From positions 26,908,001 to 26,972,000 of the forward strand of contig OX597830.1 of assembly GCA_951406725.2 (NCBI GenBank): 64,000 nucleotides of DNA. Direction: 5' to 3'. Numbering within the stretch: the first letter of the stretch is position 1; each line of letters opens with the position of its first letter. The notes under the pieces are model-generated. The model was not told the DNA's origin, ran no database searches, and worked only from the letters and a program-made list of their open reading frames with translations. A program made the position numbers and the translations under genes. Shown here one piece after another: positions 33,180 to 53,815 of this stretch. The stretch is from Octopus vulgaris. Taxonomy: Eukaryota.

Positions 33180-35060
33180 AAGACTATTCCGGAAGTAATT
33201 TTACATTGGTATATAGAATTCTTAATCTTAGAATTATTAGACATAAATTTAATTCTGTTGGGGTTGTACTCAGAGACCAAAACTATGTTGTTATTACTAT
33301 TATTATTATTATTATTATTATTATTATTATTATTATTATTATTATTATTATTATTATTATTATTATTATTATTATTATGGAAAGGGCTGGTATTAACAAA
33401 ATTAATGCTGGAACTCTCAGAAAATGAACTTTTATTTAGCGGACTGTTATTATGAGAAGATATAATTTGTGAAAGATTCTTTGCGTTGGAGAAGTCAACT
33501 CTAACTATATGAGAATTAACAATTGAATAATATCTAGAATTTTTGGGAAAGTTCTTACCAACCACTTCACGGAACTGCAAAGGAAGATTAGATTTAATTT
33601 GCCTTCCATACGGAATAACAAACCAAATAGTTTTCCTAGTAACAGTCAAATTGTAAGTGGTACTATCTATAAATATCAGTGAAATACCTCTAGAGTGAAA
33701 AAATGGGCTTAAATAACAGTTGGCTCCCTTACTCTGTAAAGGAATTTTATCATGTTTTGTGTTGTTGTCAATATTAGAATTAAAATCACTCTTCTTATTA
33801 CAACTAGATTTCTTGTCTCGAATAGTAGATGAAGAATGAGATTGAGCAGAATCAATATATGTAACTTTTTCTTTATACCCTGCTTTAATTAAGGCTGAGT
33901 TATATAATTCTGCCTTCTCGTTAAAAATGTCAACATTGGCGGATAGTTTAGACAATCTAACTGAAATGTTTTTAACTAAATTCTTAGTAATTGCCCTAGC
34001 GTGATTACAGGATGGACTAATATGCTTGAGATTGGTGGAAGGTTTGTGGTATGGGAAGGATGAGTTATTATGCAAATTAAGAGTAATATCTAAAAAGTTA
34101 GCTTTAATTATCTCATTGTCAAAAACAATGTGTAAACCCATTCTACGAAAAAACCTAACTAACCTATTCTTAACCTTCTGTATTTTTTGATTGGAAACGT
34201 TTTGGAGGTAACTCAAACAATCATCACGATATAGACCACCACAGATGTCTAGGAACTGGTCAGCCATTTCATGAAGTATATATATATTTCTTTACTACCC
34301 ACAAGGGGCTAAACATAAAGGGGACAAACAAGGACAGACAAAGGGATTAAGTCGATTACATCGACCCAGTGCGAAACTGGTACTTTATTTATCGACCCTG
34401 AGAGGATGAAAGGTAAAGTCGACCTCGGCGGAATTTGAACTCAGAACGTAACGACAGACGAAATACCGCTAAGCATTTCGCCCGGCGCGCTAACGTTTCT
34501 GCGAGCTCGCCGCTGTATATATACTTCATGAAGTATATATATACTGACTAAATATATATGCTGACTGTATATATACTTCATGAAGTATATATATGCTGAC
34601 TAAATCCGCAATTTGAGCAGAATCCGAACTTCCCATTGGGACATCGAACGCGTTCGGAGTATCCTTCCGGACCCACAACTTGTTATGAAACTTAATAATA
34701 GATATTCTGGCAGCAAGCGCCACATTAATTTCCTCTCTAGAGAGACCTGCTTTATTGTGTGCATGCGAGATTACCTTATTGAGTATAATAGGGTTTATTG
34801 ATGAATAAAAGCTAGATATATCAAACTGAATAAATTTAGTGTTAACCTTATTAGTAATAGAAGTAAACCAATCTACAACCTGAAAAGAATTAGAGCATAA
34901 GCTAAATTTTAATTTATTGATTAAAGTAGGGGTATACTTATCTAAGATGTATTTACTAAGTATACCGATGTCTGAGCTGGAAGGACAGATAAGCCGAAAC
35001 ATATGTCGAAAGTAAAAGAATTTGAGTAACACCTGCGTTCAACTCCATTTATTTACTTAT
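33180..35060 (-). mobile_element. Penelope-like element RT region, split by SINE B (34287-34514), with inverted terminal piece at 34996-35060
   Basis: RLICP, FIQFDISSFYSSI, VPMGSSDSAQIADLV, GLYRDDCL, NFLDITLNL, PYHKP, IWFVIPY, poly-Asn, SIYQC. Confidence 0.9.
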
Positions 35061-35069
35061 ATATATATA

Positions 35070-36230
35070 CTAGCATTAAAGACCCGTCGTTGGCGGGTCA
35101 TAGTGCTAGTGCATGTATATATGTGTATATATATATGTGTCCATATTACATGTACATCTATATATATACATCTACACATAAAATACAAAATACAAAGTTA
35201 TATCTTGATATCGCTAGTGATAACAATACTCAAAATATATAACAGACTGGAATTGTTAGCCCGTCTCTTGTAAGTTCGATCAATTGTATCTTGTCCTCCC
35301 TCTTGTATAGAAGTGTGGCTACAATCCAGCCTACCTCTACTTCGGGAGGGGGGGGGGCATTTCTAATTTTTTTCCGGCACGTCCTACGTCCCAGATATAA
35401 AGGTAAAAATAAAATATTTCCACTTTGCAAGTTCGAGTCGAATACTCCATTGCACGCTCCGTTGACTCGAACTTTGCTTCTATTGTGGCGAATTTACCGC
35501 CTCTGATTAGATACCTTTCATAGTCGCACCAAGACACTTTTCGAAGGTGCTTTCCTCCATGTGTTCAAATATTCTTTTTTCTCTACATTGTGTACTTTAT
35601 AGACAATAGTCTTTTCTTTAATTTAATTTTTTATTATCCATCTGGACTATTCCATTTCTGCACGCTAATTTTATTTTTAATTTATTCCCATTCATGTGAA
35701 ACCACTTATTCAAGTTGAATCATTGATGCAATTTTATACCAATTGCTATTTTTACTTTTGTTATGTTTCGATTATATTATACTTTAGTTTGATTTTAATT
35801 ATTACTTACTACATATAATTCAATTGTTATTATTATTTTTATTGTTAATGTGAAAGTATCTGACATGAAATAGAGAAACGTTTTTGTTTCACTTTTAACA
35901 CGTAATACTGAAATAGTGAAGAAGATATGATATTGCTATGGGCTCGCTCTAGGCAAAAAGTTGAACATGTAAGGCATGTGTAAAATTTGAATGGAATTGG
36001 TTGTGTAGTTCTCAAGTTTTAGGGAATCGTAGTGGAGAAGATATGATATTGTTGTGGCCTCGCCCTAGGCAAAAAGTTCAAAATTTTTTTGCCGATGACA
36101 CTCCCCAGACCCTAAGTAAGGCATGTGTAAAATTTGAATGAAATTGGTTGTGTAGTCCTCAAGTTTTAGGGAAACACACAGACAGACAGACACACAGACA
36201 CACATTCTCAGTTTTATATATATATAAAGA
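35070..36230 (-). mobile_element. Non-autonomous Helitron
   Basis: Minus-strand 5' TC(T)TATATATAAAACTGAGAATG at 36230; hairpin GACCCG..CGGGTC near terminal CTAG at 35070. Confidence 0.75.
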
Positions 36231-36232
36231 TA

Positions 36233-37522
36233 CTAGCAATATAACCCGGCCTTGCCTGGGATTAAGTTACGATTATTAAGCTAACCAAGTTCTTTATTTC
36301 AAACCAAACTAAGTAATATCGACGTCAAATTTGGGCAAAATCCGTTGAAATTGGTTATATTATATATATATAATATAATATAATATAATATAAATATATA
36401 TGGGTAACAGATACGATCACACATGTACGTACGTACACCTATTGCGTGTTTTGTGCATGTTCATAAACAGAAATGAATGGGAAAATGTTGTTAAATTTGT
36501 AGATTAACACTCGCACGATTTTCACTAAGAAAAATAATCGTTTTTTTTTTGCGTGGAATCAATTATTCTGGCCTCCTAATATGCTACAAAACCCTTTTGT
36601 GGTCCGTGAAACGGAGTGGAGTGGGTATGGTGGAAGCCTCGGAAATTGTACCCATTTATATTGTGCAATTCACTGACAAATTGCTACTCACCTCTTTGTT
36701 TCTTTGTTGTTAAATAAATGCATTGTCAACAAAACACTTTTTTGCACGGCGTAAAATAAAAACAAAACTCTTTCGCACCCAAAGTAATGTGTGTGAGAGA
36801 GAGGGGGAGAAAGATGAACGATTTGAAATAAATAAATGATTTAAAATAAATATATTGTAATTGTTGTGTGAGAAAATATATATACTAAGATTATAAAATA
36901 TAGTGTCTTTCAAAAACTTCCTGAATTTGAACACTATATCTCGTGTTTAAGAAAAGACAAAACATTTTACATTTTATATTTTATGAACGTCGTCACTTAT
37001 TCTCTCTCTCTCCCTCTCTCACTTTGTCTTTCCCGTGAAACTCTCTGCTTCATTCCACTTTTCTTTATCTTGTTTTGTTTGTTAGACGCCGTCAGAAAGC
37101 TATGGCTGAAAATAGATTTTTAGGAACGTCGTCACTTACTCTCTCCCGCTATGTCACTTTGTCTTTCCCTTGAAATTCTCTGCCTCTCTTCTTCCACTTT
37201 TTTTATCTTGTTTTTTTTTGTTAGACGCCGTCAAAAAGCTATGGCTGAAAATAGATTTTTACCGCTAAAAGTTATGGCTGAAAATAGATTTTTACCGCTA
37301 TCCGCGGGTGCCTCGGGAAAAAATAAGTTGACAAAAACCAGATAGGATGTTGACAAATCTCCTGCTAAAATTTGAGTGACATGCGTGCTAATTTCAGGAT
37401 GTGCAAAAACTACAATCACGTGCACACACACACACACACACACACACACACACACACACACACACACACACACACACACACACACACACACACACACACA
37501 TCTTGCCGTATATATATACAGA
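36233..37522 (-). mobile_element. Second non-autonomous Helitron directly adjacent to the first
   Basis: CTAG at 36233 plus hairpin CCCGGCCTTGCCTGGG; TC start at 37522 next to (CA)n; internal duplication of about 137 bp at 36985-37260. Confidence 0.65.
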
Positions 37523-37874
37523 TATATATAAATATATATGTATTCCCAACCACATGGTTCTTGGTTCAGTACTATTGCGTGACACCTAGGGCAAGTGTCT
37601 TCTGCTATAGACTCGGGCCGACCAAAGACTTGTGAGTATATCTGGTTGACGTAAACCGTAAGAAGCCCATCTTATATATGTATATATATAATTATAGTAT
37701 ATTCTGTTAAGAACATAGTAGAATACAGTATAAGGCTCGCTCGTCCACTTTCATATTTAAACTGTGCTTTCCAGTAGCAGTATTATATGTATTTCCAGGT
37801 TTGCGTTTGGGCATCTGTCGTGTGTGAATAGATAATTGAAAAAATTGGAGTCAACAAGAAGGGTACGGTTGTGC

Positions 37875-52517: not shown

Positions 52518-52679
52518 GTATTTATATATATATATATAGGGGTTGTGTATATATATATAGGGGCTCTGTATATATATATATATATATATATATATATATA
52601 TATATATATATATATACACATACATACATACATGCATACATACATAAATACATACATACATACATATATATATATTTGT

Positions 52680-53240
52680 AAAAAATGAAGTTCGAAAATG
52701 CTGCTGTATTATACAATTTTTAATTTTTATATATACATTATAACATGTTTCAGTTCCTGAAATGAACCTTATCAAAAAAAAGTTATATATAAAAAGAGAC
52801 AGCTCATGCCGTCAAACACAAGAAATTCATTTATAATACACAACGGAGTCAGACATCTTAGAGTTCATGTATAGTTGATATATAGTTCATGTACAGTTGA
52901 TATATAGTTTGAAGTATATGTTCAAAGTGTTCGATGCAGTGGCCCACGGTGGCGATACGTATTCAATACAAAAAACAGATCAAAGTGGTGGAAAGCGGTC
53001 AATACAGAAGATTGATGTTTCCGAAAGAGCGAGGAATTCATTTTTACCTTAAGCAATTGTGATGACCCATGGTGGAAGTTCGCTGGGTGGTTCTAGTGGG
53101 TTTTTGTGAAATGCTCGGTTTTATAATGCCTGTTAGGTGGTCAATCTAGCGTAGCGTGACGTCATCAATGTTTTGACCAATCGTTTCGTTAGGTGGCTTT
53201 AATCAAGTGGAACGGGACGTCATCATTATTTTGACCAATA
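52680..53240 (-). mobile_element. Probable PLE terminal fragment with degenerate hammerhead (52738-52776)
   Basis: Minus strand TTGATAA-GGTTC..GAACT-GAAACATGTT; (TA)n flanks. Confidence 0.4.
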
Positions 53241-53280
53241 TATATATATATATATATATATATATATAAATGAATAAATG

Positions 53281-53408
53281 AAAAGAATGGAGTCGAACGA
53301 AGATTTTATCAAAATTCCTTTACTTTCGACATATGTTTCGAAGACTGCAGTCTTCGAAACATATGTCGAAAGTAAAGGAATTTAATCTTCATTCGACTCC
53401 ATTCTTTT
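53281..53408. repeat. Fold-back palindrome of a PLE terminal sequence
   Basis: Perfect core 53312-53383 centred on CTGCAG; arm GAAACATATGTCGAAAGTAAA also at 34996 and 16682. Confidence 0.92.
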
Positions 53409-53815
53409 TGTTTATTCGTATAAAAAAACACAAATTTCTCCACACGAACACGGGGTTCAGCCCTTGGCATGTAACTTCAACCGTGTTTTACTGAAGTGAA
53501 TTTGCTACCCAGGTATCGATTAACAGAATTATCCATACTAGGATAATTCATTCATCTACTTAAATATATATATATATATATATATATATATATATATATA
53601 TATATATATATATATATATATACCGATAGGGCACAGAAAGTGTGTCAATAGCCAGCTGGAGAAGATGTTCTCCTGGGGCTACAAGCTACAGTAACATCTA
53701 CCCTTAGTGTTTAGCCATATTTGGATGGCAAATATACTTCACATTGTTCTCAGGTATGCAAGGTATGCGCTGCCTGCCCTGTGATTTTTTTATCCATATC
53801 ATTGGGAAATTAGAT

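What the first reader, a model, noticed from the sequence alone, without database searches (positions are those of the whole stretch)
34990..53410. Inversion breakpoints sit just upstream of the hammerhead GAAAC motif
Seen: the PLE RT ORF ends at about 34995, where an oppositely oriented piece begins exactly at GAAACATATGTCGAAAGTA. The 53281-53408 palindrome turns 8 nt before the same motif, and a further copy occurs at 16682. The 17026 palindrome turns about 6 nt before GAAACAGTTC. GAAAC-ATAT-GTC is the 3' half of a type-I hammerhead. Inference: the ribozyme stem II region is a hotspot for RT pausing, self-priming or template switching, linking ribozyme structure to insertion architecture.
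Basis: inference. Interest (0 to 1): 0.7.

Follow-up and report, generated by a model that had tools for sequence, protein, structure and literature searches.

The report
Penelope insert ends mark transcript start

Summary
The motifs and palindromes are real and intact copies carry a full type-I hammerhead. The 'stem II hotspot' does not hold. The four sites mix two Hydra-type PLE families, and 16682 is no inversion. Family F1 (34996, 53356, 16682): 18 of 241 mapped 5' ends lie at -8..0 from GAAAC, 1.36-fold over near flanks (p=0.15). Family F2 (17026): 44 of 92 arms end at -26..-18 (14-fold), with a cliff at the A just before stem I (-25). A TATA box sits 29 nt upstream, and that A is mostly preceded by a non-native G, as expected if the cap is copied. 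None ends at the cleavage site. Inverted units pair one tailed and one untailed arm (116 of 135; none tail-tail), joined by microhomology or fillers. Best reading: both target strands prime on uncleaved sense RNA at two internal sites, cDNAs abort or run off the RNA 5' end, and end-joining fuses them. The layout is published; I found the start-site reading in no paper. This scan noted the same front-edge stop in a shark-type genome (e1-9377603). No RNA evidence.

The parts
33189..34996 (-). F1 Hydra-type PLE, 5'-truncated inside RT (at the RLICP motif); interrupted by a dispersed repeat at about 34285-34513 and an (AAT)n run; its own 3' end is lost beyond about 33189
   Evidence: 75% identity to L149 ORF
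34995..35060 (+). F1 untailed inverted arm: hammerhead 3' half (GAAAC at 34996) to the proximal end, then (TA)n; joined by CG microhomology
53269..53345 (-). F1 untailed arm of the mini-palindrome, 5' end at -6, flanked by (TA)n
53346..53349 (.). 4-nt filler at the inversion centre, not found in family copies held
53350..53562 (+). F1 tailed arm, 5' end at -6, GAAAC at 53356, about 155-nt tail, then (TA)n
16545..16883 (+). F1b tailed copy, 5' end about -150, hammerhead core deleted; not an inversion junction
16961..17079 (-). F2 tailed arm (67-nt tail), 5' end at -11
17076..17127 (+). F2 untailed arm, 5' end at -5, GAAAC at 17081; shares a 4-nt overlap drawn from the stem II inverted repeat
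   Evidence: (read directly)
11325..14742 (.). F3: third Hydra-type PLE, inverted arms with intact hammerheads (core at 14623, GAAAC at 14690; mirror near 11450) and GIY-YIG ORF piece 13082-14101 (-); join at least 340 nt upstream of GAAAC

Best explanation
These are head-to-head insertions of Hydra-type Penelope-like elements in (TA)n, each pairing one tailed and one untailed arm, and likely made when both cut target strands prime reverse transcription at two internal sites on uncleaved sense RNA and the two cDNA ends are then likely fused by microhomology end-joining. In F1 the cDNAs likely abort at scattered positions, somewhat more often within 100 nt of the priming site and at short palindromes, so the window's joins at -1 and -6 are ordinary draws. 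In F2 a TATA promoter in the pLTR likely starts a capped transcript at the A just before hammerhead stem I; RT primed 67 and about 135 nt downstream would run off that end, often copying the cap as an extra G, which gives the cliff at -25 and the 200-nt mini-palindromes; ends 3' of the cliff (like 17026) would be trimmed run-off products or earlier aborts. Shown: breakpoint maps, arm pairing, microhomology, TATA spacing, G excess. Inferred: twin priming, start site, cap copying, repair pathway.
For: Arm pairing: of 135 inverted partners of tail-anchored arms 116 end at the proximal site, 0 carry a tail, 19 unresolved; 42 of 45 pairs with both 3' anchors are tail/no-tail and divergent. 48 of 71 F1 pairs have a tailed arm shorter at its 5' end than the partner, 27 do not overlap it at all. 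Junctions: microhomology of 2 nt or more in 40 of 73 F1 and 20 of 39 F2, insertions in 19 and 12. F2: 44 of 92 arms end at -26..-18, hazard 0.088/nt against 0.005/nt at -27..-60; tail-anchored repeat: 30 of 59 at -30..-18, 0 of 59 at the cleavage site. TATAAAT starts 29 nt before the A in 20 of 26 long copies, variants at 29-30 nt in the other 6; chance of TATAWA in a 4-position window about 0.008. Base before the A: native T, A or C; in the first 100 of 360 G/C matches G 84, C 16, of which by eye 39 G and 10 C are not explained by the partner arm or the native copy (p=2e-5); only 5 of the first 100 of 1,790 A/T matches are neither native nor symmetric. Stem I fold-back product: 0 hits in all loci held. 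In vitro, an anole PLE cuts and extends both strands, starts RT at two internal sites and uses uncleaved RNA (PMC11167929); untemplated 5' G marks capped L1 and SVA RNA (PMC4859970).
Against: No RNA data. The G signal is weaker than it looks: many 'free' G lie at the end of short templated inserts, 4 of 9 local xA dinucleotides are GA, and in the unselected local sample G is 13 of 22 (p=0.12 against 4/9); where the flank is not element-derived G and C are about even (4 v 4 by eye). My pattern's first letter V dropped all T-first contexts, including the common partner-derived C class (4 of 22 locally). -25 is also the last base pair of stem I and the start of a 4-nt palindrome used by 16 of 68 arms. 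F1 and F3 show no such cliff, and the F1 peak at -96..-126 (43 events, 2.9-fold, window chosen after looking) has no G excess (3 of 43) and is unexplained. Later deletions through palindrome centres could also shorten arms. The D. virilis promoter is TATA-less and internal (PMC2377424). About 68 of 100 listed A/T matches read through -25, so my 3' anchor over-represents short arms; I estimate about 40% of arms that reach -25 stop there.
Confidence: 0.6

Rival explanations
1. The F2 cliff needs no transcript end: the AGCT palindrome and the closing of stem I let two longer cDNAs anneal or stall there, and the G comes from templated fillers.
For: 16 of 68 arms reaching -25 are in the symmetric AGCT join; -25 is the last pair of a 6-bp stem I; G excess not significant in the local sample (p=0.12).
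Against: Other 4-nt palindromes nearby (CTAG, TATA, TTAA) draw few ends; non-symmetric joins and joins to unrelated DNA also stop at -25..-23; fixed TATA spacing; F1 has an equally long stem I and no cliff at its front edge; partner+G+arm joins 5 against partner+C+arm 0 (p=0.03).
Confidence: 0.2
2. One reading: stem II next to GAAAC is a general hotspot for RT pausing or template switching.
For: F1 position 0 has the largest single-base count (7 of 241); tail-anchored F1 subset 8 events, 2.85-fold, p=0.012; F2 -12..0 3.1-fold, p=0.005; the 17026 join uses the stem II inverted repeat as microhomology; TTCGAA and ACATATGT palindromes flank GAAAC.
Confidence: 0.1
3. One cDNA (or an antisense RNA) folds back and self-primes, giving the inverted arm, as proposed in PMC3846280.
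For: 33 of 41 F2 pairs have ends within 10 nt of each other; palindromic centres are common; earlier scan note e1-9560786 favoured it.
Against: An untailed arm cannot template a tail, and in 48 of 71 F1 pairs the tailed arm lacks sequence that the partner has; no stem I fold-back product. Later asymmetric deletion could rescue some cases.
Confidence: 0.07
4. Part of the F1 ends are run-off at the hammerhead cleavage site (+12).
For: F1 +12..+15: 11 events, 1.70-fold, p=0.086; +12..+26 1.45-fold, p=0.045; L368 and L382 partners start exactly at +12; two short F2 partners start at +20/+21 (L316, L302, by eye).
Against: Not significant after several windows were tested; 0 of 100 and 0 of 59 F2 arms end at the site; the region is AT-rich and quasi-palindromic; cleavage was dispensable in vitro (PMC11167929).
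Confidence: 0.15

Closest known systems
Hydra clade of EN+ Penelope-like elements (Craig et al. 2021, PMC8557442; passages, section 11 and supplement rows read)
   Same: RT plus C-terminal GIY-YIG without CCHH, DKT motif, (TA)n targets, hammerhead in the pLTR, adjacent inverted 5'-truncated copy, tail on one end.
   Different: Tails are about 155 nt (F1) and 67 nt (F2), not 30-40; F1 lacks the CxCX5C linker and has a 45-50-nt extended stem-loop II; F2 has a long microsatellite-rich 3' UTR; the paper maps no breakpoints.
PAc Poseidon element in vitro (Frangieh et al. 2024, PMC11167929; parts 1-2 of 4 and passages read)
   Same: Both strands cut and extended, two internal RT start sites that define the tail, uncleaved RNA as main template, product length set by the RNA 5' end.
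   Different: No inverted junctions, start site or cap analysed; other clade.
Adineta vaga Penelope pLTRs (Arkhipova et al. 2013, PMC3846280; passages read)
   Same: Inverted pLTRs, palindromes at the inverted junction, a putative TATA box and initiator in the pLTR, microhomology at a 5' junction.
   Different: Explains palindromes by self-priming on an antisense template and leaves the sense alternative open; my arm-pair and G data favour sense templates primed twice.
L1 twin priming and cap-derived 5' G (review PMC4859970; passages read)
   Same: Inversion with small indels at the breakpoint; untemplated G at complete 5' ends.
   Different: L1 primes first at the poly(A) end and its two pieces do not overlap; here both primers land at fixed internal sites and the hammerhead region is often copied twice.
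PLE hammerheads (Cervera and De la Pena 2014, PMC4209133; parts 1-2 of 4 read)
   Same: Type-I motif in the pLTR, palindromic minimal helix III (F1), pairs of motifs on opposite strands 100-700 bp apart.
   Different: Proposes cleavage and circular templates; no sign here of F2 ends at the cleavage site.

Membership tests
EN+ Penelope-like element | PLE-type RT with C-terminal GIY-YIG endonuclease | tested here: met
   Window RT 75% identical to L149 ORF; L149 C-terminus hits GIY-YIG at E=0.0036, below the Pfam cut-off; the RT has no Pfam hit but its motifs line up by eye with the Hydra rows
EN+ Penelope-like element | pLTR with inverted 5'-truncated copy and one-sided tail continuing into the element 5' end | tested here: met
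   (F1 tail runs into 5' UTR and ATG in L036, L150); for F2 no copy with tail running into an ORF was seen
Hydra clade | DKT in place of DKG; RWK motif | tested here: met
   F1 has SDKTG and IRWL, a one-residue variant of RWK; not seen for F2, whose N-terminus was not held
Hydra clade | EN without CCHH, with CxxC and CxH | tested here: met
   F1 CLLC and CKH; F3 CQLC, CVH
Hydra clade | CxCX5C linker | tested here: not met
   Absent in F1; present in the F2-linked ORF (L146) and F3. F1 is therefore filed as Hydra-type, not as a proven member
Hydra clade | Insertion into (TA)n | tested here: met
   Microsatellite next to the tail end in 164 of 170 F1 and 59 of 59 F2 arms
Hydra clade | Placement in the RT phylogeny | not tested
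   Reference proteins were seen only inside a paper's supplement; no tree was built
Type-I hammerhead ribozyme | CUGAnGA, GAAA, NUH and stems I-III in type-I order | tested here: met
   139 intact long-loop motifs in loci held: stem I TCTTTC/GAAAGT 44, ACTTTC/GAAAGT 26, compensatory TTCC/GGAA 6; stems I and II form in the L034 centroid, z=-2.1. F2 folds weakly (z=+0.5). The Rfam scan listed no hammerhead among the 150 of 309 matches shown
Type-I hammerhead ribozyme | Self-cleavage | not testable with these tools
   needs a bench assay
Capped Pol II start site | TATA about 30 nt upstream, initiator A, mapped RNA 5' ends | tested here: inconclusive
   TATA spacing met, G excess suggestive, RNA ends not available

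The most novel reading that the evidence does not exclude
Thousands of F2 mini-palindromes are fossil 5'-RACE products: they record a capped, sense, uncleaved transcript that begins exactly at the hammerhead, was primed twice at internal sites and had its cap copied. This would decide the sense-versus-antisense template question for Penelope-like elements and show that the ribozyme sits at the very 5' end of the RNA and stays uncut during insertion.
Probability: 0.5. Interest if true: 0.68.

Novelty: new variant of a known kind. Interest (0 to 1): 0.48.

Why it matters
How Penelope-like elements make their inverted ends and what their hammerhead does are both called open in print (PMC8557442, PMC3846280, PMC11167929). 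The junction maps turn this into direct tests: one predicted start nucleotide, one TATA box, two priming sites. The finding as first written, a stem II hotspot, would have been misleading.

Tried and rejected
Rfam scan at E<=5: microsatellite noise, no hammerhead among the rows shown. The repeat finder swamped by microsatellites. Pfam gave nothing for the window RT pieces. I first took F2 for a Neptune element because of the ORF in L120; one search shows that ORF also sits in F1 and F3 loci, while a Hydra-type ORF is shared by three F2 loci (L146, L141, L101), so I dropped it. A context-based de-duplication merged independent F2 copies and was replaced by coordinates. Splice-acceptor reading of the F2 edge: the ends include the AG itself and one subfamily has AAG, so rejected. 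A start-site cliff in F1: not found. F3: 29 arms, no cliff; several calls are artefacts of indels in my single reference. Sequencing runs: no RNA holder listed, contigs only; read laying not used. Literature searches that found no report of PLE breakpoints at a start site or of a cap G in PLEs: (0 papers); subscription papers, and supplements I did not open, may hold it.
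Full report
What is in the window. The window is G000:C17:26908001-26972000 of a 2.8-Gb animal genome. 33189-34996 holds a minus-strand PLE ORF piece that is 75% identical to a longer copy with a C-terminal GIY-YIG region. Its 5' truncation abuts a plus-strand 3' end that starts one base before GAAAC; the native RT context shows a 2-nt overlap. 53269-53562 is a mini-palindrome of the same family F1 with one untailed and one tailed arm, both matching to -6, a 4-nt filler and (TA)n on both sides. The 16682 copy starts near 16545, has lost its core and is not inverted. 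16961-17127 is a second family, F2. 11325-14742 is a third, F3, with its join at least 340 nt from GAAAC. Positions below count from the G of GAAAC.

The ribozymes. Intact F1 copies read stem I, CTGAnGA, a 5-bp stem II extended into a long hairpin, GAAAC, a palindromic minimal stem III, GTC, stem I; among 139 long-loop motifs in the loci held, stem I shows a compensatory change in 6. F2 has a compact motif with a 6-bp stem I from -25, core at -19 and predicted cleavage before +20. Cleavage was not tested.

Sampling. Exact 3'-end patterns gave 109, 508, 430 and 816 F1 matches and 2,647 F2 matches; tail-end patterns gave 374, 688 and 2,068. Each search lists only the first 100 places; I took loci in genome order (30 per search plus 200 fetched stretches, six of which were picked as long copies). 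Ends were mapped by anchored alignment to natural long copies, leaving out the copy's own locus. Maximal alignment shifts an end upstream by its microhomology, and a few F1 calls near GAAAC are ambiguous.

F1: no clear stem II hotspot. Of 392 distinct arms, 308 reach +33 after removing identical-context duplicates and L367; 67 are censored, 241 have an end. 18 ends lie at -8..0: 1.36-fold over +1..+33 and -30..-9 (p=0.15), 1.62-fold over wider flanks (p=0.047). Sub-samples disagree: 4 of 189 arms, 0.57-fold; 8 of 165, 2.85-fold, p=0.012; 7 of 82 partners, 1.70-fold, p=0.14. The whole stem-loop II is 0.72-fold. The block -30..+33 is 2.1-fold over -31..-95, and -96..-126 is 2.9-fold (43 ends; window chosen after looking). 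The cleavage site is 1.70-fold, p=0.086. So short arms are common and short palindromes near GAAAC may add a little, but 93% of ends are elsewhere.

F2: a cliff at the front edge. Of 100 arms (92 after removing identical contexts), 44 end at -26..-18, 14-fold over flanks and 18-fold over -27..-60; 13 end at -12..0; none at +13..+20. The tail-anchored set, which overlaps the first, repeats this: 30 of 59 at -30..-18, 0 at +16..+24. Genome-wide lists show that other subfamilies read through more often: about 68 of the first 100 of 1,790 A/T-preceded matches are native (by eye), so roughly 40% of arms reaching -25 stop there. TATAAAT begins 29 nt before that A in 20 of 26 long copies. The base before the A is never G in native copies, yet G makes 84 of the first 100 of 360 G/C-preceded matches; by eye 45 G can come from the partner arm, 39 G and 10 C cannot, 5 C are native, 1 C is partner-derived; a script on the first 30 gives 15 partner G, 13 free G, 2 free C. 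Against over-reading: the pattern omitted T-first contexts, templated fillers here often end in GA, the unselected sample gives G 13 of 22 (p=0.12), and non-element flanks are even. An untemplated G is the accepted mark of a copied cap in L1 and SVA (PMC4859970, passages). I rate the start-site reading likely and the cap reading slightly better than even.

How the inversions form. 116 of 135 inverted partners of tailed arms end at the proximal site, none has a tail; 42 of 45 close pairs are divergent tail/no-tail. The F1 tail runs on into the 5' UTR and ATG of the ORF, so both ends are internal priming sites, as shown in vitro for PAc, which also cuts and extends both strands and uses uncleaved RNA (PMC11167929, parts 1-2 of 4). 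In 48 of 71 F1 pairs the tailed arm lacks 5' sequence that its partner has, and in 27 it does not overlap it; one cDNA folding back cannot give these unless later deletions are invoked. Microhomology or fillers mark most joins; assignment to polymerase-theta-type end-joining is from my own knowledge, not a call. The stem I fold-back product was not found in any locus.

Comparison. Inverted 5'-truncated copies, tails and hammerheads in pLTRs are published (PMC8557442, PMC4209133); TATA and initiator motifs and palindromic joins were noted in rotifer elements and explained by antisense self-priming, with the sense alternative left open (PMC3846280, passages); the D. virilis promoter is TATA-less (PMC2377424, passages). 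bioRxiv 10.64898/2026.07.22.740005 and PMC6431247 (passages) add nothing on junctions. F2 and F3 ORFs carry the Hydra linker, F1 does not; no tree was built. An earlier unchecked note of this scan reports the same front-edge stop in a shark-type genome; I reached my reading before opening it and did not test it.

Verdict. Observation partly confirmed, interpretation partly supported: ribozyme yes, stem II hotspot no. The useful residue is the F2 cliff, most likely the RNA start. Interest 0.48.

Noticed in passing
window 59454-59622: 169-nt near-perfect palindrome next to (TA)n, from another dispersed repeat; no hammerhead core seen in it.
   Followed up: no
window 11325-14742: Young F3 Hydra-type PLE with arms 391 of 394 identical, intact long-loop hammerheads and an Asn-rich stretch before the GIY-YIG domain; 1,225 exact 3'-end matches in the genome.
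   Followed up: partly
F1 positions -96..-126 from GAAAC (e.g. window 16570-16600): Unexplained 2.9-fold peak of 5' ends in an AT-rich stretch with short palindromes; no G excess.
   Followed up: partly
L036, L150: F1 tail (about 155 nt) continues into the 5' UTR and ATG of the ORF; L150 also shows an N-terminal ORF piece fused straight to the 3' pLTR.
   Followed up: partly
L120:3280-5600: Neptune-type PLE ORF nested inside an F2 unit; pieces also lie in F1 and F3 loci.
   Followed up: partly
window 7587-7700 (-): 5S rRNA-like match above the Rfam gathering score, 46.6 bits; possibly a pseudogene or SINE head.
   Followed up: no
window 16545-17127: An F1 copy and an F2 palindrome sit side by side in one (TC)n/(TA)n run, an example of repeated targeting of the same microsatellite.
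   Followed up: no
window 32800-33170 (+) and 51634-52811 (-): Fragments of two unrelated LINE-type ORFs; the first abuts the lost 3' end of the F1 left arm (family names would be recalled, no Pfam hit for the second).
   Followed up: no
L333-L337; L224-L226: Identical F1 junctions in 5 and 3 places, i.e. segmental or tandem duplicates rather than new insertions.
   Followed up: partly
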